DNA from: Candidatus Melainabacteria bacterium GWF2_37_15
GTDB lineage: Bacteria; Cyanobacteriota; Vampirovibrionia; Gastranaerophilales; UBA9971
DNA length: 64,000 nt
Direction: 5' to 3'
Assembly (NCBI GenBank): GCA_001784565.1
Contig: MFRL01000027.1
Coordinates: forward strand, 660 to 64,659
The position numbers were made by a program, and so were the translations under genes. Shown here one piece after another: positions 41,408 through 55,745 of the stretch; the first letter of the stretch is position 1; every line of letters starts with the position of its first letter. The notes beneath the pieces are model-generated. The model saw only the letters and a program-made list of their open reading frames with translations, searched no databases and was not told the DNA's origin.

Positions 41408-41998
41408 ATGAAGGATATTGTCTGGCATTCTGCTAAAATAAGCAAGGAAAATAAAGAAACCCTTCTGAATCAGAAGGCCTGCGTACTCTGGTTTACTGGC
41501 CTGTCCGGCTCCGGAAAGTCCACCATAGCTGTGGAACTCGAAAAAAATTTTTATGAAAAAGGTAAATATACAGTAATGCTCGATGGCGATAATATCAGGC
41601 ATAGTTTGTGTTCGGATTTAGGATTCTCTGTAGAAGACAGGCAGGAAAATTTAAGAAGAATAAGGGAAACAGCAAAATTATTCTACGAAAACGGAGCCAT
41701 AACCATAGTTTCCTTTATTTCACCGTTTAAACAGGACAGGGAATTAGCAAGAAACTTAATAGGGAAAGACTTCATAGAAATCTTCATTGAGTGTAAGATT
41801 GAAATATGTGAAAAAAGAGACCCCAAAGGGTTGTATAAAAAGGCTAGAGCTGGTGAAATAAAGGGATTTACCGGAATAGACCAGGAATACGAAAAGCCTG
41901 ATAAGCCTGAAATTACTATAAATTCAGATAAAATAACGGTAGAAGAAGCTGTTAATAAGATAATCGGGTATTTATATGGATCATCTGGAAGCAATTGA
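41408..41998 (+). CDS. cysC: Adenylyl-sulfate (APS) kinase
   Basis: All catalytic motifs are intact: [19 protein letters not shown] and SFISPF. Confidence 0.9.
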
Positions 41999-42776
41999 AG
42001 CACAAAGTATCTACATTTTAAGGGAAGCATACAAACATTTCGGAAAGCTGGGTATGCTCTGGTCAATAGGCAAGGATTCCACTGTAATGCTTTGGCTGGC
42101 GCAGAAAGCGTTTTTCGGGCATTGCCCTTTCCCATTAATTCACGTTGATACAAGCTATAAAATTCCTGAAATGATTGAATTCAGGGATAAGCTGATTAAG
42201 GAACTGAATCTTAATTTAATAGTTCATCAGAACAAGGAAGCTCTTGAACAGGGCATGAACCCGAAAAAAGGAAGGCTTGTATGCTGTGAACATTTAAAAA
42301 CAAAACCATTGCAGGAAGTAGTAAAGAAATTCGGGTTTGAAGGTCTAATCCTCGGTGTTCGTAGGGACGAAGAGGGCTCACGCTCAAAAGAGCGTTTTTT
42401 CAGCGAGAGAGACAGCGAATCAAACTGGGATTACACTGACCAGCCGCCCGAGTTATGGGACCAGTTCAAGACAGACTTTAAAAAAGGCAACCATATTAGG
42501 ATCCATCCGCTTCTCCAGTGGCGAGAGATTGACATCTGGAAATACATTCAAAGGGAAAATATTCCTGTAGTTGACTTATACTTTGCTAAAAACGGGAAAA
42601 GATACAGAAGCCTTGGGTGTTACCCCTGTACATTCCCGATTGATTCTAATGTAACTGATGTTGAGGGAATTGTCGAGGAACTCCAACACACCACCCAGGC
42701 CGAACGCTCAGGCAGGGCGCAAGACCAGGAAGACGCTTACGCAATGCAGAAATTAAGAAGCAAAGGGTATATGTAA
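41976..42776 (+). CDS. cysD: Sulfate adenylyltransferase subunit 2
   Basis: [35 protein letters not shown]; close to the E. coli CysD pattern. Confidence 0.9.
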
Positions 42777-44611
42777 TGACTGAATTGGCTGTAAAAATAA
42801 GGGAAAAGCTTAATATAGTTGTAGTCGGCCACGTTGACCACGGAAAATCCACCCTCATAGGCAGGCTTCTGTTTGATACAAATTCGCTCTCTTCTGGTGC
42901 CATTGAAAAAGTTAAAAAAATATCTGCACAAAACGGAAAACCTTTTGAATATGCGTATTTACTTGATGCTTTTGAGGAAGAACAGAAGCAGGGTATTACC
43001 ATAGACACCACGAACATTAATTTTTCCACTGAAAAAAGGGATTATGTCATTATTGACGCGCCAGGCCACAAGGAATTCTTAAAAAATATGATTTCAGGAG
43101 CCTCAAGTGCAGAAGCAGCACTATTAATGATAGACGCAAATGAAGGGATTCAGGAGCAGTCAAGAAGACATGGCTATATCCTCTCACTTCTTGGGATCAA
43201 AAAAGTTTTTGTAATAGTAAATAAAATGGACTTAATCGGCTATTCCGAGGCTGTTTATAATGATATAATGCGGAATTTCAACAAATTCCTAAGCAATTTA
43301 AACATTTATCCTATAGAATACATACCCGTATCTGCTTTTAACGGGGAAAACATAACTATACGATCAGATAATCTTGCGTGGTACAAGGGAGTTACAGTAA
43401 TTGAGGCATTGGATTTAATACAAAAAGACCCGGAAGCTGAAGATAAACCCCTGAGATTTTCAATTCAGGACGTTTACAAATTTGATACCAGAAGAATTAT
43501 TGCTGGCAGAATAGAAGCCGGAACCCTGAAAGTTGGGGATGAGATCACCATAAGCCCTTCAGGCAAAACCACAAAAGTGAAAACAATTGAGAACTGGCCG
43601 CATGAACACGATAAAAATTATGTTTCAGCGGGCATGTCGGTTGGTATAACAGTCGAGGACGAGTTTTTCAACAAAAGAGGCGAGGTCATATCCCATAACC
43701 ACAATAAACCCCAGAAAAGTAACCTGTTTAACGCAAATATATTCTGGATGGGGAAAAATCCCCTGGTTAAAGGCAAGACCTACAAACTAAAATTAACCAC
43801 TCAGGAAGTGGAATGTGAAGTATTTTCTATAAACAGGGTTATAGATTCATCTAATCTCACAGCTGCTGAGGATTTTACTGCTGTAAACAGGAACGAAGTT
43901 GCAGAAGTAACAATTAAAACACGTGAAGTAGTTTGTTTTGACGAATTTGCAGAATACAGAGGCACAGGAAGGTTTGTAATTGTTGAAGATTATAATGTTT
44001 CAGGCGGCGGCATTGTTCTTAAAACCGACGATACATTGAAAAACAGGATTCTTGAACCAAAAAGCAAAAGCCTCAAACCCCGCACACGATTGGTTACAAG
44101 AGAACAAAAAGAAAAAAAACTAGGCCAAAAAGCAAAAGTTATCTGGTTAACAGGTTTAACTGGTTGCGGCAAGAATGAAATAGCCGTGAAGCTGGAGAAA
44201 AAACTGTTTGAACTGGGTAAAACCCTGTGCTATCTTGATTCTGCAAACCTAAGGTTTAGTATAAGCTCTGATCTTGAATTTAACGAGTCAGGAGTATATG
44301 AACAAACGAGAAGGATAGCTGAAATCGCTAACCAGTTCATGAATAACGGTATAATAACTATCGTTACCTCAATTAGTAGGTATAAAAAGGCCAGGGAGTC
44401 AGCAAAAGAGATTATTGGCACTGATGATTATCTGGAATTCCACATTGAAGTCACAGAAGCAGTCCTTAAAAAACGCTGGGATTCTAGTCAGGAATGTTAT
44501 TATGAAAAATCAGATTACCCTGTACGTTCTATGTACATTGACGATCCAAACTTTAATGCGGACGAAAAAGTGGATTTAATAATGGAAAGTATAAAAGATA
44601 TTTTACAATAA
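42776..44611 (+). CDS. cysN: Sulfate adenylyltransferase subunit 1 (GTPase) fused to a degenerate APS-kinase-like domain
   Basis: It has the GTPase motifs GHVDHGKST, DAPGH and NKMD. The C-terminal 163 aa are APS-kinase-like but with altered motifs (see findings). Confidence 0.9.
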   Translation: MTELAVKIREKLNIVVVGHVDHGKSTLIGRLLFDTNSLSSGAIEKVKKISAQNGKPFEYAYLLDAFEEEQKQGITIDTTNINFSTEKRDYVIIDAPGHKEFLKNMISGASSAEAALLMIDANEGIQEQSRRHGYILSLLGIKKVFVIVNKMDLIGYSEAVYNDIMRNFNKFLSNLNIYPIEYIPVSAFNGENITIRSDNLAWYKGVTVIEALDLIQKDPEAEDKPLRFSIQDVYKFDTRRIIAGRIEAGTLKVGDEITISPSGKTTKVKTIENWPHEHDKNYVSAGMSVGITVEDEFFNKRGEVISHNHNKPQKSNLFNANIFWMGKNPLVKGKTYKLKLTTQEVECEVFSINRVIDSSNLTAAEDFTAVNRNEVAEVTIKTREVVCFDEFAEYRGTGRFVIVEDYNVSGGGIVLKTDDTLKNRILEPKSKSLKPRTRLVTREQKEKKLGQKAKVIWLTGLTGCGKNEIAVKLEKKLFELGKTLCYLDSANLRFSISSDLEFNESGVYEQTRRIAEIANQFMNNGIITIVTSISRYKKARESAKEIIGTDDYLEFHIEVTEAVLKKRWDSSQECYYEKSDYPVRSMYIDDPNFNADEKVDLIMESIKDILQ

Positions 44612-46323
44612 TGGACATTTTTATATTAATTTGCTTGTTTATAGTAATTATTTTACTTGTTAAAAGCCTGATAGAGCCGACTTTAGCTTTTTTGGGACTT
44701 TTAATTTTTTATTTCCTGCTTGATTTAATTACTGTGAACGACTTATTGGGCAGTTTTGTTAATACATCAATAATAACCCTGATGTTGCTTATCATTATTG
44801 CTGATGTACTGGCGAGAACGCAGATCACATCGCTCACAAACCGCGTAGTAGGAACAAAAAAAAGGAATGTTTTAGGCTTGGGAGTGTTGGTGAGCTTTTT
44901 ATCCAGCTTTTTGAGCAACACCCTCGTAGTCCAAATGTTCATTAATATGCTTAATAAAAAGGAATTCAAGTCCAGGCTACTTTTGCCCGTTTCATACCTT
45001 GCTATCTTGGGCGGCACAACAACCCTGATCGGGACCTCCACAAACTTGATTGCACAGGGATTTATGATTCAAATGGGTTTGCAACCTTTTAAATTTCTTG
45101 ATTTTGCATATGTTGGGATTCCCCTTGTATTCGCAGGTATTATTTATTTAACATTTTTCAGTCCCATAATCCTTAAGCATAAGCCAAATGAAGCAGTTCA
45201 GGAATGTGAAAATTATTTTCTTGAAGCCAGAGTTCTGGAAGGCTCATCATTAAACGGTAAAACCATTATGGAAAATGGACTTAGAAACCTTCATAGTCTC
45301 TTTCTGGCAGAAATAATAAGGCATAATAAACTAATTTCTCCTGTAAAACCAGATGAATTGGTACTTGAAGGGGATATTTTAGTATTTACAGGCGATATAG
45401 AAAATATTAATGAGCTTCAAAAATTTAACAAGCTTGAAATATTTGAGCAAAAGAACGATGTGTTATGCAGAAATCTTGTATGGGCTGTTCTTTCGCATAA
45501 TTCTTCGCTGGTTAACCAAAAAATAAAAGAGTGTAACTTCAGAAGGAAGTTCGATGCAGCAATAGTAGCGATTAAAAGGGAAGGTGAAAGCCTGAGAGGA
45601 AAAATCGGTGAAATTACGCTAAAAGCAGGCGATCATTTAATCCTGGCGGTTGGTGAAAACTTTCTGCCTACCAGGGAGGTCAAAAGTAATTTTTACCTGC
45701 TGAATGACCTTGAAACTGTTAAAAAATTCGACATCAAAAATTCAATGTTTATCTATTTTTCTTTCCTCCTGCTCATTGTCCTGTCTGCGCTTAATTTGAT
45801 AGACCTGCTCAAAGGCCTGTTTGTGCTTTTATTTTTATACATGATTTTAAAATTCATAACGTTTAAGGATGTAATTAAAAACATAAATGTAAACCTGCTA
45901 ATCCTGCTGGGATCAGCCCTGGGAATCTCTAAGGTGCTTGTGTCTAACGGTGCGTCAGAACTTATATCAAATTTTATATTATATATAAGCCAGAATATAG
46001 GTGTTTACGGCACATTCATAGCTATATACTTTCTTTCAATTGTACTTACTGAATTCACATTAAACGCATGTGCTGTGGCAATTGCGTTTCCAATTGCATA
46101 CCTGACTGCAATTAGCCTGGGAGTTAGCCCGACTCCATTTATATTTGCTGTAACTTACGGCGCCAGCGCAAGTTTCCTTACAAAATTTGGTTACCAGACT
46201 AATATGATGGTTTCCGCAGCAGGAAATTATAAAGCAGGAGATTTTATAAGGCTTGGCCTTCCCTTATCCATAATTTACGCAATAATAGTGTTGACTCTGG
46301 TACCTGTATTCTTTAAATTTTAA
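44611..46323 (+). CDS. SLC13/DASS-type anion permease with two central TrkA-C domains (putative sulfate transporter)
   Basis: Polytopic N- and C-terminal halves flank two RCK_C-like units (LEGSSLNGKTI..., SSLVNQKIKECNF...). The sulfate assignment rests on its position inside the cys cluster. Confidence 0.75.
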   Translation: MDIFILICLFIVIILLVKSLIEPTLAFLGLLIFYFLLDLITVNDLLGSFVNTSIITLMLLIIIADVLARTQITSLTNRVVGTKKRNVLGLGVLVSFLSSFLSNTLVVQMFINMLNKKEFKSRLLLPVSYLAILGGTTTLIGTSTNLIAQGFMIQMGLQPFKFLDFAYVGIPLVFAGIIYLTFFSPIILKHKPNEAVQECENYFLEARVLEGSSLNGKTIMENGLRNLHSLFLAEIIRHNKLISPVKPDELVLEGDILVFTGDIENINELQKFNKLEIFEQKNDVLCRNLVWAVLSHNSSLVNQKIKECNFRRKFDAAIVAIKREGESLRGKIGEITLKAGDHLILAVGENFLPTREVKSNFYLLNDLETVKKFDIKNSMFIYFSFLLLIVLSALNLIDLLKGLFVLLFLYMILKFITFKDVIKNINVNLLILLGSALGISKVLVSNGASELISNFILYISQNIGVYGTFIAIYFLSIVLTEFTLNACAVAIAFPIAYLTAISLGVSPTPFIFAVTYGASASFLTKFGYQTNMMVSAAGNYKAGDFIRLGLPLSIIYAIIVLTLVPVFFKF

Positions 46324-46335
46324 AGGACGTTGATA

Positions 46336-47076
46336 ATGATTGAACAAGTAATAAAAATAGCAAACCAGGCCGCAGAAGCCATCATGGAAATATATAAAAG
46401 TGTTGATCCTGAGGTTAAGTACAAGAAGGACGATTCACCGGTCACGCAAGCTGACATATTATCAAATGAACTAATAATTAAAGAGTTAAAACAGATTTCT
46501 GATCTGCCTATCCTCACAGAAGAAACCCAGGTTCTTTATGAACAAAGGAAAACCTGGAATAAATTCTGGCTGGTTGATCCATTGGATGGAACAAAGGACT
46601 TCCTTGTCAAAAACGACCAATTTACGGTTAATATTGCGCTGGTAGAAAATAGGAAACCTATATTAGGAGCGGTTCTAATCCCGGCTGAAGGACTCTGCTA
46701 TTGGGCAGAAAAAGATAAAGGCGCTTTTAAAAATGGGGAAAAAATTTATAATAATTCCAAAAGAACTGACTTAATCGGAAGCGACAGTAATTTCCATTCG
46801 ACTGAAGAAACCCAGGCTTTCTATGCAAAGCATAACGTGCAGCATATTCAAAGATACGGTTCTGCCTTAAAGTTCTGCAAACTGGCAGAAGGAGAAATCG
46901 ACCTGTACGCTAGGCTAAACGGCACCATGGAATGGGATACAGCCGCTGGCCATATTATTATGAATGAAGCAGGATGTAAAATTATTGATGTAAAAACAAA
47001 AAGCGAGCTTATTTACAACAAGGAAACCCTGCTAAATAATCATTTCATCGCTTGCAGGAATGATTTAAGTTTTTAA
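46336..47076 (+). CDS. cysQ: 3'(2'),5'-bisphosphate nucleotidase
   Basis: ILTEE, WLVDPLDGTKDF and WDTAAG motifs. The ATG at 46336 is preferred over the TTG at 46330. Confidence 0.85.
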   Translation: MIEQVIKIANQAAEAIMEIYKSVDPEVKYKKDDSPVTQADILSNELIIKELKQISDLPILTEETQVLYEQRKTWNKFWLVDPLDGTKDFLVKNDQFTVNIALVENRKPILGAVLIPAEGLCYWAEKDKGAFKNGEKIYNNSKRTDLIGSDSNFHSTEETQAFYAKHNVQHIQRYGSALKFCKLAEGEIDLYARLNGTMEWDTAAGHIIMNEAGCKIIDVKTKSELIYNKETLLNNHFIACRNDLSF

Positions 47077-47678
47077 AAGCTTATAACTAAACCTTTTCCA
47101 TCTTCAATTTTGTGCATAAATTCGTCTGTTGTCACTATTCCATCGTTATCGGCATCAGCGGCTTTTATCGCTTCCAGCATAGCTTTTTCGCGTTTTTGTG
47201 CCAGAGAATCGGTTCCGCTTAGAGCATTTAGCTCCCCGTCGATACCGCGAACGTGAAATTTATTATTATCACCTTTCTCATACTGCATTTTATTAAAGAA
47301 TTCAAAGGCAAAATCTTCATCCACATATTCTGTGCCTTCTGATTCACTAAAAAATTTATCTTCGTTATTATTTACAAGTTCTTCACCTAATTGAGCTTTA
47401 TTCGTAAAAAATTCACCCCAGTGGTCTGTTGTGTGTGTATGGTGATGATGGTGCTCAACAGGTTCACTGTCTACAACAGGTTCACTTACAGTCACAGGTT
47501 CGCTAACCTCTGCAGGTTTCTGTGCTACTGTTGGTGCATTAAACGCTGCAAATAAATTCATAAATGCGTTCAAGAATGAATTTGTATTATTTGTATAATT
47601 ATTTGTATATACCGGCGTAAAAAATGAGGTTCTAGGTCTATACATACTTTGCACTGCTAGTAAACTATAAATACTCAT
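47073..47678 (-). CDS. Hypothetical N/Y-rich protein with SEPV repeats, His run and a canonical EF-hand loop
   Basis: DADNDGIVTTDE fits the 12-residue EF-hand loop. The N-terminal architecture parallels the ORF at 54237. Confidence 0.55.
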   Translation of the reverse strand: MSIYSLLAVQSMYRPRTSFFTPVYTNNYTNNTNSFLNAFMNLFAAFNAPTVAQKPAEVSEPVTVSEPVVDSEPVEHHHHHTHTTDHWGEFFTNKAQLGEELVNNNEDKFFSESEGTEYVDEDFAFEFFNKMQYEKGDNNKFHVRGIDGELNALSGTDSLAQKREKAMLEAIKAADADNDGIVTTDEFMHKIEDGKGLVISF

Positions 47679-49335: not shown

Positions 49336-49509
49336 TTAAAATTTATACTCAGTTGCCAATTCCCCGTTAGGCAGGGCATAAACAACTTTGCCATTAATTG
49401 AATATACATTTGGCAAGCCTTTGCACCAATTTTCCTGCTGAGCTTTTTTAACTGCCCTGTTGAATAATTTTGCTATTTCAAATACTTCCTCAAGTTCTTT
49501 CTTAATCAT
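49336..49509 (-). CDS. Unannotated 57-aa ORF coupled to the zeta-like ATPase (candidate partner/antitoxin)
   Basis: I translated it by hand: MIKKELEEVFEIAKLFNRAVKKAQQENWCKGLPNVYSINGKVVYALPNGELATEYKF. Its ATG overlaps the upstream stop within ATGATTAA. It is below the 60-aa cutoff of the ORF track. Confidence 0.4.
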   Translation of the reverse strand: MIKKELEEVFEIAKLFNRAVKKAQQENWCKGLPNVYSINGKVVYALPNGELATEYKF

Positions 49510-50074
49510 TTTTTATATCCTTTAAAAACAACTCAAAAGAGCTTTCATCAAGTAAATTATAATCTCCCTTTATTCCACTTGCAACCAGCTCAATTTTTTC
49601 TATACCATTATAGAATAACATCCATTTATCTACTATATCCCTATATTTATACCATAAATTACTTTTGCTTCTGTAAAATCGGCGTATTACATCCTCATCA
49701 GGTACAAAATGCCCGCCACGCTTAACTCGAACTTTTATTCGCTCTATACAGATATTAGGATTATCAACAAAACAATATATTAACGCTGTATTATATCCCT
49801 GTTGCCTGGCCTGTTTTATTGTTTTAACAAGAAAATTTCCCGAAAGCGTTGTTTCAATCGCAAAAGATATGCCCTGTAAAAGCAGTTCGTTTATCTTTTT
49901 AAGCACTAATTTTCCTGCCTGAATCCTAACAGCCTGTAAATCATCAGGATTAATTTCCCTTGCAACCTCATCTGCATTGATAAATTTAAGCCCAAATTCC
50001 GGTAATAACTCCTTTGCAAGAGTAGTTTTACCGCTTCCATTCGCTCCGGCAATTATAAACAGTTGTTTAGACAA
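49502..50074 (-). CDS. Zeta-toxin-like P-loop ATPase/kinase (COG4185 type)
   Basis: Walker A GANGSGKTT, NADE, ETTLSG, and the RVKRGGHFVP pattern typical of this family. Confidence 0.7.
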   Translation of the reverse strand: MSKQLFIIAGANGSGKTTLAKELLPEFGLKFINADEVAREINPDDLQAVRIQAGKLVLKKINELLLQGISFAIETTLSGNFLVKTIKQARQQGYNTALIYCFVDNPNICIERIKVRVKRGGHFVPDEDVIRRFYRSKSNLWYKYRDIVDKWMLFYNGIEKIELVASGIKGDYNLLDESSFELFLKDIKND

Positions 50075-54236: not shown

Positions 54237-55745
54237 TTAACCGATATACTGCAATAAAGCGTCAATCATAGTGCCTTTAGAGCCATCAGCTCTTTCAAAT
54301 CCGCCAACGAGTCCTACTGTATTACCGTGCTGGTCTTCTTTTAGCTTACCGGTTTGATCATATTCCTGGTTAAAGCTTGTTGATACTGATTTAATATTTG
54401 TTTCAAGCAATGATTTTAATTCATCATCATCAACCTGTCCGTTATGGTTTAAATCCTGCCAAGTCTGAAGCTTTTCAAACACTTCATCATTAATATCAAC
54501 TTTTCCGTCTTTATTTACATCATATTTTGCCAGTTCAAAGAACCCATTTTCAGCGCCGTTTTGTGCACCGAAGAGTTCCTTGCCTGAATCAATCTGTCCA
54601 TTACCGTCTTTATCAAGTACAAGGAATGCATCATCGCTTTCAGCTTTAGTCCAGGCTGTCTGGTCAATTTTACCATCACCGTTTAAATCAAAGTTTACAC
54701 CGTCTTTTTGTGATGTTAAATCTATTCCATTTCCGGCCAGGTCAAGGATTAACGGAGTTTCTTTTCTTGCAAGCGTTGTTATAACATTGTATTCAGTTCC
54801 GTCAAGCTGAATTTTACCGCCCACGCCTTCTTCATGTTCTGATATGCCTACGTTTTCAACGTGGGTGTTTATGTTTAAGCTGTCCGATGTAACATTAAAA
54901 TCTTTATTAAAAACAGCATCACCGGTTCTATTCAATGGATTTCTGCCACTGCCTCCATCCCAGTCAGAATCCGGGTCTATCTGGTAGTTAGCAGCTACAC
55001 CTAATATCTCGCCTGACTTAGAAATTATATAAGCCTGACCCTTATCGAATTTAAGATCTTTAGTTTCCTGATCAAGCTTAGAGTATAAGCTTAATAATGC
55101 CTCGTCATTGGCAGTAACACTGTTATGGCGGGTATAATTCCAGGCTTCACCGTTTCCGCTATCTGCTCCTGCAAAATCGAGGATTGATTTGCCAAGATTT
55201 ACCTGCTCATTATTATTCGCATATGACGATATAACAAACACATCTTCAGGTTCTTCGCTGCTTTCAACCGCAACTTCTTCACTGACAGGTGTTTGGGTGT
55301 TAATAAAGTAATTATTCCAGATATTGATTGCATTGGAGCTTCCAGTTGTGTTATTTGTAAAATTTGATTGCTGGCTTGTCATGGATTGGGAAATAATTTG
55401 AGTGGTTATAGGAGCCAGAGTTTGGAAATTTTGCCACGTTTGCGAAGTTTGAAAACTCTGCAAACTTTGACTCTGCAAGCTTTGAGCTTGAGGCGCTATT
55501 GTAGGTGTGACTATAGGTTCAGTTATAGGCTCAGTCTGAGGTTGAAATAAACTTTGTAAAGTTTCAGGGGAACGCTCTAACATTGCCATAAAAAGCATGG
55601 CAAAAATACTGTTAAAATATGAATTTTGATAGGAATTCTGGTAAGGACTTTGTCCATATTGTCCGAAATTTTGTCCGTAATTCCCAAAGGAATTGAAATT
55701 GCTTTGATAAGCGTTCTGGTTCACATAACCTGCAAATATACCCAT
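54237..55745 (-). CDS. Hypothetical N/Q/Y-rich protein with four EF-hand-like calcium-binding loops
   Basis: The loops are DLNGDGKIDQTA, DKDGNGQIDSGK, DVNKDGKVDIND and DLNHNGQVDDDE. GGAGGAG RBS. Confidence 0.6.
   Translation of the reverse strand: MGIFAGYVNQNAYQSNFNSFGNYGQNFGQYGQSPYQNSYQNSYFNSIFAMLFMAMLERSPETLQSLFQPQTEPITEPIVTPTIAPQAQSLQSQSLQSFQTSQTWQNFQTLAPITTQIISQSMTSQQSNFTNNTTGSSNAINIWNNYFINTQTPVSEEVAVESSEEPEDVFVISSYANNNEQVNLGKSILDFAGADSGNGEAWNYTRHNSVTANDEALLSLYSKLDQETKDLKFDKGQAYIISKSGEILGVAANYQIDPDSDWDGGSGRNPLNRTGDAVFNKDFNVTSDSLNINTHVENVGISEHEEGVGGKIQLDGTEYNVITTLARKETPLILDLAGNGIDLTSQKDGVNFDLNGDGKIDQTAWTKAESDDAFLVLDKDGNGQIDSGKELFGAQNGAENGFFELAKYDVNKDGKVDINDEVFEKLQTWQDLNHNGQVDDDELKSLLETNIKSVSTSFNQEYDQTGKLKEDQHGNTVGLVGGFERADGSKGTMIDALLQYIG

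What the first reader, a model, noticed from the sequence alone, without database searches (positions are those of the whole stretch)
44120..44608. CysN carries a degenerate APS-kinase domain while an intact stand-alone CysC sits two genes upstream
I compared the two kinase-like sequences in the window.

| Motif | CysC (41408-41998) | CysN C-terminal domain |
|---|---|---|
| P-loop | [11 protein letters not shown] | GLTGCGKNEIA (Ser/Thr replaced by Asn) |
| APS site | LDGDNIRH | LDSANLRF |
| FISP | SFISPF | TSISRY |

All three motifs are altered, yet the fold-length domain (163 aa) is retained. The domain is therefore probably catalytically dead and kept for another role. By analogy, the APS-kinase-like C-terminal domain of fungal ATP sulfurylase acts as an allosteric PAPS sensor.
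Basis: partly seen in the sequence, partly recalled or inferred. Interest (0 to 1): 0.55.

Follow-up and report, generated by a model that had tools for sequence, protein, structure and literature searches.

The report
Dead APS-kinase domain on CysN
The GTPase subunit of this bacterium's sulfate-activating enzyme carries a conserved copy of the next pathway enzyme (APS kinase) that has lost its catalytic residues, while a normal stand-alone kinase in the same operon does the work. The same arrangement is found across Clostridia and Melainabacteria and is routinely mis-annotated as a "bifunctional" enzyme.

Summary
CysN (42776-44611) ends in an APS-kinase-fold domain (aa ~437-611). AlphaFold2 gives pLDDT 90.7, and the model matches the plant APS kinase 3uie at TM 0.84.

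The domain has lost the Mg-ligand Ser (GKS to GKN), the catalytic Asp (DGD to DSA), one of two APS-binding Arg residues, and the lid with its catalytic Lys and stacking Phe. A canonical cysC (41408-41998) begins the same operon.

This is a conserved family rather than private decay:
- G-x-x-G-C-G-K-N-E and LDS[AS][NH]xR are nearly invariant in Melainabacteria and many Clostridium relatives.
- The domain diverges no faster than the real CysC of the same genomes.
- A canonical cysC lies nearby in 27 of 30 species-representative loci. Two of the other three cannot be judged, and one lacks it.
- Some proteins are CysN-deadKinase-realKinase fusions.
- Sister lineages lose even the P-loop but keep the fold.

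The domain is therefore almost certainly not a kinase, yet it is functional. I favour a non-catalytic nucleotide- or anion-binding (APS/PAPS) and dimerising regulatory module. A purely structural assembly or CysC-docking role is a close rival. I found no paper describing it.

It is a new variant of a known kind: the analogue on the CysDN-type enzyme of the fungal ATP-sulfurylase allosteric domain. Interest is moderate.

The parts
41408..41998 (+). cysC, a canonical stand-alone APS kinase (196 aa)
   Evidence: PF01583 at 223.7 bits over the full profile, and TIGR00455 at 262 bits against a cut-off of 138.7. The key-residue string KSDGDNRFRNSPKF is identical to the canonical consensus. Best PDB match is 3uie, E 8.6e-62.
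41976..42776 (+). cysD, the catalytic subunit of the ATP sulfurylase (266 aa)
   Evidence: PF01507 and NF003587 CysD at 375 bits. It overlaps cysC by 23 nt and cysN by 1 nt.
42776..44020 (+). CysN GTPase core (aa 1-415; EF-Tu/EF-1alpha-like domains 1-3)
   Evidence: TIGR02034 CysN at 359.3 bits against a cut-off of 336.1. G1 GHVDHGKST is at aa 18-26, G3 DAPGH at aa 94-98 and G4 NKMD at aa 149-152. PF00009, PF03144 and PF22594 also match.
44021..44083 (+). Linker between the CysN core and the kinase-like domain (aa 416-436)
   Evidence: No secondary structure in the full-length model, and low conservation of 0.49.
44084..44608 (+). Pseudo-APS-kinase domain (aa 437-611)
   Evidence: PF01583 at 93.8 bits over profile positions 2-117 only, and TIGR00455 at 100.3 bits, below the cut-off of 138.7. 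AlphaFold2 gives pLDDT 90.7. Foldseek top hits are all APS kinases, TM 0.84. Key-residue string is KNDSANRFVQSR--.
44153..44179 (+). Variant P-loop GLTGCGKNE (aa 460-468). The glycines and Lys are kept; the Mg-ligand Ser/Thr is replaced by Asn and followed by an invariant Glu.
   Evidence: G36, G39, G41, K42, N43 and E44 (domain numbering) are invariant in 20 clade members. Segment conservation is 0.92, against 0.79 for the CysN core.
44234..44254 (+). LDSANLR (aa 487-493), which replaces LDGDNIR. The first Asp and the APS-phosphate Arg are kept; the catalytic-base Asp is replaced by Ala.
   Evidence: Residue roles come from PMC4373884.
44369..44380 (+). SISR (aa 532-535), which replaces FISP. 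A new, clade-conserved Arg sits at the phosphosulfate-binding loop.
44453..44524 (+). Lid remnant (aa 560-583). The KGLYKKAR...GFTGID lid is reduced from 23 to 8 residues between the conserved Arg and YE, so the catalytic Lys and stacking Phe are absent.
   Evidence: The lid's role is described in PMC4373884.
44611..46323 (+). DASS/CitMHS-type anion transporter with two TrkA_C domains, a probable sulfate importer. It is translationally coupled to cysN.
   Evidence: PF03600, PF02080 (two copies) and PF00939; TIGR00785.
46330..47076 (+). cysQ, the 3'(2'),5'-bisphosphate nucleotidase (PAP phosphatase)
   Evidence: TIGR01331 at 247.6 bits against a cut-off of 228.8.

Best explanation
The C-terminal 175 residues of CysN form a pseudo-kinase. 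This is an APS-kinase fold that cannot phosphorylate APS but is kept under purifying selection as a non-catalytic module of the CysD-CysN sulfate-activating enzyme. In this operon CysD-CysN makes APS, the separate canonical CysC makes PAPS, and CysQ removes PAP.

Shown here:
- The fold is intact.
- The catalytic base, Mg ligand, lid Lys, lid Phe and one APS-binding Arg are gone.
- The remodelled motifs are conserved across Melainabacteria and Clostridia.
- The domain evolves as slowly as the real CysC.
- A real CysC almost always accompanies it and is sometimes fused behind it.

Inferred:
- This clade keeps an invariant glycine-rich loop with its Lys, the APS-phosphate Arg and the adenine-stacking Phe. 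It has also gained a conserved Arg and Gln at the old APS site.
- The pocket therefore most likely still binds an adenosine phosphosulfate nucleotide (PAPS or APS) or another anion without turning it over.
- The domain probably dimerises through the usual APS-kinase alpha2/alpha3 interface.
- The likely result is feedback control, or product hand-off, of APS synthesis and GTP hydrolysis. That would be functionally convergent with the PAPS-binding kinase-like domain of fungal ATP sulfurylase.
For: Fold:
- AlphaFold2 pLDDT 90.7, pTM 0.87.
- The top 50 Foldseek PDB hits are all APS kinases, e.g. 3uie_A at TM 0.84, rmsd 2.1 A.

Loss of catalytic residues:
- Key-residue string KNDSANRFVQSR-- against KSDGDNRFRNSPKF in 125 canonical domains.
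- Residue roles in M. tuberculosis CysC (PMC4373884): Ser457 is the Mg ligand, Asp480 the essential base, Lys562 the lid transition-state stabiliser, Arg483 and Arg497 bind the phosphosulfate, and Phe492 and Phe576 stack the adenine.

Conservation of the variant motifs:
- Seen in 120 homologues and in the 20-sequence clade alignment.
- P-loop segment conservation is 0.92, against 0.79 for the CysN core.
- Divergence equals that of the real CysC in the same genome pairs: 0.52-0.59 against mostly 0.53-0.60 (one locus 0.44) in Clostridia, and 0.74-0.80 against 0.68-0.73 in Melainabacteria.

Companion kinase:
- A canonical cysC is in the operon in L001-L005, L007 and L008.
- It is present in 27 of 30 GTDB loci.
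- The tri-domain proteins P0118 and P0120 carry the dead domain followed by a real kinase.
- Loci with a canonical CysNC fusion have no extra cysC.

Family thresholds:
- Below the TIGR00455 and NF004035 cut-offs, above the TIGR02034 CysN cut-off.

Precedent:
- The fungal kinase-like domain lacks activity and acts allosterically, and kinase-like domains dimerise through the kinase interface (PMC13213808 / bioRxiv 10.64898/2026.04.02.716029).
Against: - There is no biochemical evidence of any kind.
- One of the two phosphosulfate-binding Arg residues and the lid Phe are missing, so APS/PAPS affinity could be low or absent.
- Sister lineages keep the domain after losing the P-loop, the DGD loop and the APS loop entirely. 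Examples are P0104, P0086, P0077 and P0114, and loci L004 and L005. The role shared by the whole family therefore cannot depend on nucleotide binding.
- The full-length model (pTM 0.75) says nothing firm about how the domain contacts CysN or CysD.
Confidence: 0.45

Rival explanations
1. Pure assembly module. The dead domain binds no ligand. It survives because APS-kinase folds are obligate dimers, and the domain either holds two CysD-CysN heterodimers together or heterodimerises with the stand-alone CysC. In the second case APS would be passed directly to the real kinase in a pseudo-kinase:kinase sulfate-activating complex.
For: - The fold is retained in lineages that have lost every nucleotide-binding motif but still have cysC in the operon.
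- Beta1, alpha1 and beta2 stay conserved (0.82-0.93) in those lineages, while the P-loop, DGD loop and APS loop fall to 0.25-0.52.
- The dimer-interface helix alpha2 (EQTRRIAEVANLF) is close to the canonical ENIRRIGEVAKLF and is highly conserved in this clade. The interface is assigned to alpha2/alpha3 in PMC4373884.
- Kinase-like domains of ATP sulfurylases dimerise through the same interface.
- The tri-domain CysN-dead-real fusions and the overlapping or adjacent cysN-cysC genes in L007 and L041 are Rosetta-stone hints of physical association.
Against: - It does not explain why this clade keeps G-x-x-G-x-G-K-N-E invariant and more conserved than the GTPase core.
- It does not explain the retained Arg and Phe of the APS site, or the new conserved Arg and Gln there.
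- Alpha2 conservation falls to 0.47 in the heterogeneous 'other' group.
- No multimer prediction or co-evolution analysis could be run.
Confidence: 0.35
2. The domain has acquired a different catalytic activity that uses the retained P-loop Lys and the new Asn-Glu pair, for example nucleotide hydrolysis or another phosphotransfer.
For: - N43 and E44 after the P-loop Lys are invariant, and a newly fixed Arg appears.
- The strength of purifying selection equals that of a real enzyme.
Against: - No known family has this motif combination.
- The lid that closes the site is deleted.
- Sister clades lose the P-loop altogether.
- Searches found nothing but APS kinases as relatives.
Confidence: 0.08
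3. The domain is still a working APS kinase, redundant with CysC, and uses substitute residues.
For: - The P-loop Lys, the first Asp of the DGD motif, the APS-phosphate Arg and one stacking Phe are retained.
- Public annotation calls the protein 'adenylyl-sulfate kinase' or 'bifunctional CysN/CysC'.
Against: - The catalytic-base Asp is Ala; the equivalent residue is essential in the mouse enzyme, as cited in PMC4373884.
- The Mg-ligand Ser is Asn, and the lid Lys and Phe are deleted.
- In M. tuberculosis CysC even a Cys-to-Ser change that disturbs lid packing abolishes activity.
- None of the 125 canonical domains carries these substitutions.
- A canonical cysC is kept beside it in 27 of 30 loci, but is not kept beside true CysNC fusions.
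- The domain scores below the TIGR00455 cut-off.
Confidence: 0.04
4. The domain is a functionless remnant of an ancestral CysNC fusion, decaying neutrally after a stand-alone CysC took over.
For: - The NJ tree shows a nested series running from DGE and DAS variants to forms without a P-loop.
- The window's copy has a further 9-residue deletion in the lid.
Against: - The domain is 52-59% identical between Melainabacteria and Clostridia, the same as the real CysC.
- It has a confident fold.
- The reading frame is uninterrupted in nearly all of the homologues and loci examined; one locus (L033) carries only a fragment.
- Motif conservation is above the core average.
Confidence: 0.03

Closest known systems
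APS-kinase-like allosteric domain of filamentous-fungal ATP sulfurylase (Penicillium chrysogenum, PDB 1I2D/1M8P)
   Same: - An APS-kinase fold fused to the C-terminus of the sulfate-activating enzyme.
- No kinase activity, with a separate true APS kinase in the same organism.
- It dimerises through the kinase interface and binds PAPS as a feedback effector (PMC13213808; MacRae et al. 2001, from my own knowledge).
- It is among the last of the 24 matches to the window's domain (E 2e-6), but the only PDB sequence match whose matched range covers almost the whole domain, residues 14-179.
   Different: - The host enzyme is the homo-oligomeric Sat-type ATP sulfurylase, which is unrelated to the CysD (PAPS-reductase fold) plus CysN (EF-Tu-like GTPase) enzyme here. 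The recruitment is therefore independent.
- PAPS binding and allostery are demonstrated for the fungal domain but not tested here.
- Sequence identity is low, and the residue-by-residue alignment was not shown by the tool, so the motif states could not be compared.
Bifunctional CysNC / NodQ (M. tuberculosis Rv1286, Rhizobium NodQ; NCBIfam NF004035)
   Same: - The same architecture: a CysN GTPase core followed by an APS-kinase-fold domain, encoded after cysD.
- Probably the evolutionary source. The NJ tree nests the dead clade within kinase domains, with fused and fragmentary variant (DGE/EGE) forms as its nearest relatives.
   Different: - CysNC kinase domains are canonical (KSDGDNRFRNSPKF, e.g. 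the Nisaea loci L043-L055) and active (structures 4BZP, 4BZQ and 4BZX).
- No extra cysC is needed beside them.
- The window protein scores 504.7 bits against the family cut-off of 715 and lacks the catalytic residues.
E. coli-type split system: CysD, CysN and a stand-alone CysC
   Same: The chemistry is divided the same way: the CysDN complex makes APS and a separate 196-aa CysC makes PAPS. All genes are in one operon, together with cysQ.
   Different: E. coli CysN ends after the EF-Tu-like domains, whereas here about 175 extra residues of dead kinase are appended.
Thiobacillus denitrificans APS kinase with an inactive ATP-sulfurylase-like domain (PDB 3CR8), and the S. cerevisiae Met3 vestigial kinase-like domain
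   Same: These are further examples in the sulfate-activation pathway of a neighbouring enzyme's fold being kept as a non-catalytic oligomerisation or regulatory domain (from my own knowledge; 3CR8 appears among the hits).
   Different: - In T. denitrificans the sulfurylase part, not the kinase part, is the dead one.
- In yeast the host is again a Sat-type enzyme, and the domain is thought to serve hexamer assembly only.

Membership tests
APS kinase (EC 2.7.1.25; Pfam PF01583, TIGR00455) | APS-kinase alpha/beta P-loop fold | tested here: met
   PF01583 at 93.8 bits against a cut-off of 21.1. AlphaFold2 model at pLDDT 90.7. Foldseek TM 0.84 to 3uie_A.
APS kinase (EC 2.7.1.25; Pfam PF01583, TIGR00455) | Walker A motif G-x-x-G-x-G-K-[ST], whose Ser/Thr ligates Mg2+ | tested here: not met
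   The motif is GLTGCGKN. The Ser equivalent to M. tuberculosis Ser457 is Asn (role).
APS kinase (EC 2.7.1.25; Pfam PF01583, TIGR00455) | LDGD motif, whose second Asp is the catalytic base | tested here: not met
   The motif is LDSA, so the base Asp is Ala. In the clade this position is always Ala, Ser or Thr.
APS kinase (EC 2.7.1.25; Pfam PF01583, TIGR00455) | Mobile lid carrying the catalytic Lys (KGLY) and the adenine-stacking Phe (FTGID) | tested here: not met
   The lid is cut from 23 to 8 residues and both residues are absent. The Pfam match stops at profile position 117 of 152.
APS kinase (EC 2.7.1.25; Pfam PF01583, TIGR00455) | Two conserved Arg residues binding the APS phosphosulfate | tested here: not met
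   The first Arg (R64 in CysC numbering) is kept. The second (R78) is Val here, and Ala or Val in the clade.
APS kinase (EC 2.7.1.25; Pfam PF01583, TIGR00455) | Curated equivalog-domain score (TIGR00455 cut-off 138.7 bits) | tested here: not met
   100.3 bits.
APS kinase (EC 2.7.1.25; Pfam PF01583, TIGR00455) | Formation of PAPS from APS and ATP | not testable with these tools
   This needs an enzyme assay or complementation of a cysC mutant.
CysN, sulfate adenylyltransferase large (GTPase) subunit (TIGR02034) | Curated family score, GTPase motifs G1/G3/G4, and a position directly after cysD | tested here: met
   359.3 bits against a cut-off of 336.1. GHVDHGKST, DAPGH and NKMD are present. cysD ends at 42776, which is the first base of the cysN start codon, a 1-nt overlap.
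Bifunctional CysNC / NodQ (NF004035) | Curated score cut-off (715 bits) and a catalytically competent kinase domain | tested here: not met
   504.7 bits. The kinase motifs are lost. The architecture alone matches.
Fungal-type allosteric kinase-like domain of ATP sulfurylase | Kinase-like fold fused C-terminally to the sulfate-activating enzyme, without kinase residues | tested here: met
   A weak but nearly full-length sequence match to 1i2d/1m8p, E 2e-6.
Fungal-type allosteric kinase-like domain of ATP sulfurylase | The host is a Sat-type (PF01747) ATP sulfurylase | tested here: not met
   The host is the EF-Tu-like GTPase CysN, partnered with CysD.
Fungal-type allosteric kinase-like domain of ATP sulfurylase | Binds PAPS and inhibits the sulfurylase cooperatively | not testable with these tools
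   This needs binding and kinetic experiments.

The most novel reading that the evidence does not exclude
The GTPase-coupled bacterial ATP sulfurylase (CysDN) of Clostridia, Melainabacteria and some archaea is controlled by a built-in pseudo-kinase. The pseudo-kinase either senses PAPS or APS, or pairs with the real CysC in a pseudo-kinase:kinase heterodimer. Either way it would form a previously unrecognised fourth type of sulfate-activating complex, with product feedback or channelling, that arose independently of the fungal solution.
Probability: 0.35. Interest if true: 0.65.

Novelty: new variant of a known kind. Interest (0 to 1): 0.5.

Why it matters
- Annotation: public databases name this protein 'adenylyl-sulfate kinase' (NCBI) and name relatives 'bifunctional enzyme CysN/CysC' (JGI). 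Metabolic reconstructions would then infer PAPS synthesis from this gene alone. The kinase step really depends on the separate cysC, so genomes that carry only the fusion would be mis-scored.
- Enzymology: sulfate-activating complexes are usually sorted into split CysD/CysN/CysC systems, CysD/CysNC fusions and Sat-APSK fusions. This adds a widespread CysD/CysN-pseudoC plus CysC form. It offers a clean system for asking how APS, a strongly inhibitory and thermodynamically unfavourable product, is handed on or sensed.
- Evolution: the family shows a graded series, from active kinase, through loss of the catalytic base and then the lid, to loss of the P-loop, with the fold always kept. That makes it a good natural example of how a fused enzyme becomes a pseudoenzyme.

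Tried and rejected
- Residue-level comparison with the fungal allosteric domain. The PDB sequence search prints only the five best alignments, which were all true kinases. A query with the C-terminal 69 residues alone gave only chance hits such as uL30 and IL-1Ra, E >= 0.019. This comparison could not be made.
- Literature. Five full-text searches found no paper that notes a dead kinase domain on CysN. I read the M. tuberculosis CysC, translational-GTPase, saccharomicin, ANME sulfur and Entamoeba APSK papers. The 2007 GTPase survey simply used PF01583 to call such proteins NodQ.
- Riboswitch or leader RNA upstream of cysC. There is no Rfam hit anywhere in the window, and the 87-nt AT-rich intergenic region was not analysed further.
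- Fate of PAPS. I scanned 36 ORFs between about 22 and 61 kb for PAPS/APS reductase, sulfite reductase or sulfotransferase and found none. The window does not show whether PAPS feeds cysteine synthesis or sulfation.
- Pocket geometry and domain docking. The structure tool returns no coordinates or PAE, so neither the P-loop pocket nor the contact between the domain and CysN could be inspected.
- Mapping the published Entamoeba dimer-interface residues onto this domain.
- Neutral decay and 'still active' were considered and rejected for the reasons given under rival explanations.
Full report
**1. What is there**

The window matches Candidatus Melainabacteria bacterium GWF2_37_15: protein P0001 is 100% identical to the window's CysN. 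On the + strand lies a tightly packed operon:

| Gene | Coordinates |
|---|---|
| cysC | 41408-41998 |
| cysD | 41976-42776 |
| cysN | 42776-44611 |
| DASS/CitMHS anion transporter with two TrkA_C domains | 44611-46323 |
| cysQ | 46330-47076 |

Three junctions overlap by 23, 1 and 1 nt, which suggests translational coupling. Family assignments are unambiguous:
- CysC is a full-length canonical APS kinase (PF01583 223.7 bits; TIGR00455 262 bits against a cut-off of 138.7).
- CysD scores 375 bits on NF003587.
- CysQ passes TIGR01331.
- CysN passes TIGR02034 (359.3 against 336.1).

The 611-aa CysN also matches PF01583 at aa 453-567. That match is only 93.8 bits and covers profile positions 2-117 of 152. 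The protein falls below the curated cut-offs for an APS-kinase domain (TIGR00455, 100.3 against 138.7) and for bifunctional CysNC (NF004035, 504.7 against 715).

**2. The observation**

The kinase-like domain is real homology, not chance (E 1.4e-26; E 1.3e-20 to Arabidopsis APK1).

Modelled with a 78-sequence alignment, it folds confidently (pLDDT 90.7, pTM 0.87). All top-50 Foldseek PDB hits are APS kinases, for example 3uie_A at TM 0.84 and rmsd 2.1 A.

Two refinements:
- It is not quite complete. The mobile lid is cut from 23 to 8 residues between the conserved Arg and the YE motif.

**3. Is it catalytically dead?**

I built an HMM from canonical kinases and read 14 functionally assigned positions in 273 kinase-like domains. 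The 125 canonical domains almost all read K-[ST]-D-G-D-N-R-F-R-N-S-P at the first twelve positions, with the lid K and F wherever the lid is present. The window's CysC reads KSDGDNRFRNSPKF. The window's CysN domain reads K N D S A N R F V Q S R - -.

The M. tuberculosis CysC structures assign the roles (PMC4373884):

| Residue in Mtb CysC | Role | State in the window's domain |
|---|---|---|
| Ser457 (P-loop) | ligates Mg2+ | Asn |
| Asp480 | catalytic base, essential by mutagenesis of the mouse enzyme | Ala |
| Lys562 (lid) | stabilises the transition state | deleted |
| Phe576 (lid) | stacks the APS adenine | deleted |
| Arg497 | binds the phosphosulfate and adenine N1 | Val |
| Lys456 (P-loop) | phosphate binding | kept |
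| Asp478 | first Asp of the DGD motif | kept |
| Arg483 | binds the APS phosphate | kept |
| Phe492 | second stacking Phe | kept |

In that enzyme even a Cys-to-Ser change that disturbs lid packing abolishes activity. None of the canonical domains carries the substitutions, so they are not tolerated variants of active kinases. APS-kinase activity is therefore very unlikely. I estimate under 5%, but it has not been tested experimentally.

**4. It is a conserved family, not private decay**

Among the 120 best homologues, the ~70 closest repeat the altered motifs: G[LVK][PTS]G[CS]GKNEIA and LDS[AST][NH]xR. These occur in Melainabacteria/Gastranaerophilales and, at about 65% overall identity, in many Clostridium species, Natranaerovirga, Sarcina and other Bacillota. 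More distant homologues carry further-degraded motifs (section 5).

In a 20-sequence clade alignment, G36, G39, G41, K42, N43, E44, S65, R69, F78, E85, R88, R89, R116 and others (domain numbering) are invariant.

Mean column conservation:

| Segment | Conservation |
|---|---|
| Variant P-loop | 0.92 |
| Alpha2 | 0.86 |
| SxSR loop | 0.84 |
| CysN GTPase core | 0.79 |

Comparing the window with 30-odd other genomes, the dead domain diverges no faster than the real CysC of the same genomes:

| Comparison | Dead domain | Real CysC |
|---|---|---|
| Window vs Clostridia | 0.52-0.59 | mostly 0.53-0.60 (one locus 0.44) |
| Window vs Melainabacteria | 0.74-0.80 | 0.68-0.73 |

The domain is therefore under purifying selection as strong as that on a working enzyme.

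**5. Evolutionary series**

A rough NJ tree places the clade as monophyletic (midpoint-rooted, no bootstrap). It sits inside a nested series of progressively altered domains, those from full-length proteins being fused to CysN:
- DGE or EGE with the lid Lys replaced by His (P0143, P0214, P0127).
- DAS or DAA (P0110, P0125, P0111, and the first kinase-like domain of P0118/P0120).
- DSA plus lid deletion (this clade).
- Forms with a 9-residue deletion of the APS loop (Gottschalkia, P0084).
- Forms with no P-loop at all (P0104 'GLDDEVNSKIA', P0086 'GSNREAKLDLA', P0077, P0114).

In these last groups the core strands and alpha1 remain conserved (0.82-0.93), while the old active-site segments do not (0.25-0.52).

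**6. A real kinase always travels with it**

A canonical cysC lies in the same operon in every context I looked up by protein:
- Clostridium: cysC, an aprA-like FAD protein, a ferredoxin, cysD, cysN.
- Natranaerovirga.
- Gottschalkia acidurici.
- The P-loop-less P0104 locus.
- A melainabacterial relative: cysC, cysD, cysN, cysQ and a sulfate ABC transporter.
- The intermediate-type P0111 locus: cysQ, cysD, cysN, cysC, a sulfotransferase and glycosyltransferases.

A pattern scan of GTDB species representatives returned 30 loci of this clade:
- 27 carry a canonical cysC upstream on the same strand. One of these is cut by the contig end.
- One has CysN truncated by the contig end, so it cannot be judged.
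- One (L033) holds only a fragment gene.
- Only L031 truly lacks cysC within the sequence held.

By contrast, loci with a canonical CysNC fusion (Nisaea and relatives, L043-L055) have no extra cysC.

Two metagenomic proteins, P0118 (837 aa) and P0120 (832 aa), are CysN-deadKinase-realKinase fusions. The P0118 contig appears to be archaeal. The dead domain thus never substitutes for the kinase, and it can sit between CysN and the kinase.

**7. How it most likely works**

Shown:
- The domain has an intact fold without the catalytic machinery.
- It is conserved, and it is coupled to CysD-CysN and to a separate CysC.

Inferred:
- This clade keeps an invariant glycine-rich loop with its Lys, the APS-phosphate Arg and a stacking Phe.
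- It has fixed new polar residues at the old APS site (Asn-Glu after the Lys, Gln for Asn81, Arg for Pro106).
- The pocket therefore looks remodelled rather than abandoned.
- The most economical reading is a non-catalytic nucleotide or anion site (PAPS or APS) on a dimerising module that feeds back on, or takes product from, APS synthesis.

The precedent is the kinase-like domain of Penicillium ATP sulfurylase. It lacks kinase activity, dimerises through the kinase interface and mediates PAPS inhibition. I give this reading 0.45.

The close rival, at 0.35, is a purely structural role: homodimerisation of CysD-CysN, or docking of CysC through the alpha2/alpha3 interface. It is supported by the lineages that keep the fold after losing every binding motif, and by the tri-domain fusions. 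The two readings are not exclusive. The ancestral, family-wide role may be assembly, with ligand sensing retained only in this clade.

I rate the remaining readings as follows:

| Reading | Probability |
|---|---|
| A new catalytic activity | 0.08 |
| Residual kinase activity | 0.04 |
| Neutral decay | 0.03 |

**8. Comparison with what is known**

Architecturally this is a CysNC/NodQ-type protein, but it fails the family's curated score and all catalytic criteria.

Functionally it resembles the fungal allosteric domain, but it sits on a non-homologous sulfurylase. It is therefore an independent, convergent case.

Five literature searches and seven papers read gave no description of it. Public annotation calls it 'adenylyl-sulfate kinase' or 'bifunctional CysN/CysC'.

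**9. Verdict**

The specific sensor mechanism remains open.

It is a new variant of a known kind. Interest is moderate (0.5): a widespread, mis-annotated pseudoenzyme module with a clear experimental path, but not a new principle.

Noticed in passing
L006 10001-12514 (protein P0118, 837 aa; also P0120, 832 aa): These are tri-domain proteins: a CysN core, a dead kinase-like domain (GLPGCGKEE / LDAATMR) and a canonical APS kinase (GLSGSGKSS / IDGDNLR / KGMY). The L006 contig (P0118) also encodes an archaeal/eukaryotic-type uS15 (PF08069 + PF00312), so its host is probably an archaeon.
   Followed up: partly
L033 9473-10555 (Clostridium sp. Marseille-Q2269): A 361-aa ORF carries only the dead kinase-like domain (aa 176-349). 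There is no CysN core, cysD or cysC within the 20 kb held. It is either a gene remnant or a free-standing version of the module.
   Followed up: no
L031 6192-8829 (Gastranaerophilales bin PL24a_bin.9): This is the only complete cysD-cysN(dead domain) locus without a canonical cysC, within 6.9 kb upstream and 10 kb downstream. cysC may lie elsewhere in the genome.
   Followed up: partly
window 44453-44524: The window's protein has a further 9-residue deletion in the lid remnant compared with all 19 aligned relatives (RWDSS---------QECYYEKS against RSSKSMYELDGHNDSELYYEKS).
   Followed up: yes
proteins P0149 and P0163 (646 aa), plus P0219, P0152, P0213 and P0231: This is a separate clade of proteins, some annotated 'bifunctional CysN/CysC'. 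The catalytic-base Asp is Glu, Gln or Arg and the lid Lys is lost, but the lid Phe and the P-loop Ser/Thr are kept. It may be a second, independent pseudo-kinase lineage.
   Followed up: no
window 44611-46323: A DASS/CitMHS transporter with two cytoplasmic TrkA_C domains is translationally coupled to cysN. A close melainabacterial relative (L008) instead has a CysPTWA-type sulfate ABC transporter. The uptake system has been swapped within an otherwise conserved operon.
   Followed up: partly
window about 22000-61400; L001, L003-L005; L007: No PAPS/APS reductase, sulfite reductase or sulfotransferase was found among the window ORFs scanned, so the fate of PAPS is not visible here. Clostridial relatives insert an AprA-like flavoprotein and a ferredoxin between cysC and cysD. 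Relative L007 places a sulfotransferase and glycosyltransferases next to cysC, which points to polysaccharide sulfation.
   Followed up: partly
window 47073-47678 (-) and 54237-55745 (-): Two ORFs look like calcium-binding proteins. The first is a 201-aa protein with a His-rich stretch (HHHHHTHTTDH) and a DADNDGIVTTDEF loop, and has no Pfam hit. The second is a 502-aa protein with EF-hand matches.
   Followed up: no
window 23169-24008 (-) and 49502-50074 (-): A Fic/DOC-domain protein, and a zeta-toxin/AAA_33-like small kinase directly downstream of adk-secY. Neither is related to the finding.
   Followed up: no
protein P0001 (identical to window 42776-44611) and clusters of P0149 and P0214: Public names are 'adenylyl-sulfate kinase' (NCBI) and 'bifunctional enzyme CysN/CysC' (JGI) for proteins whose kinase domain lacks catalytic residues. 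This is probably systematic over-annotation.
   Followed up: partly
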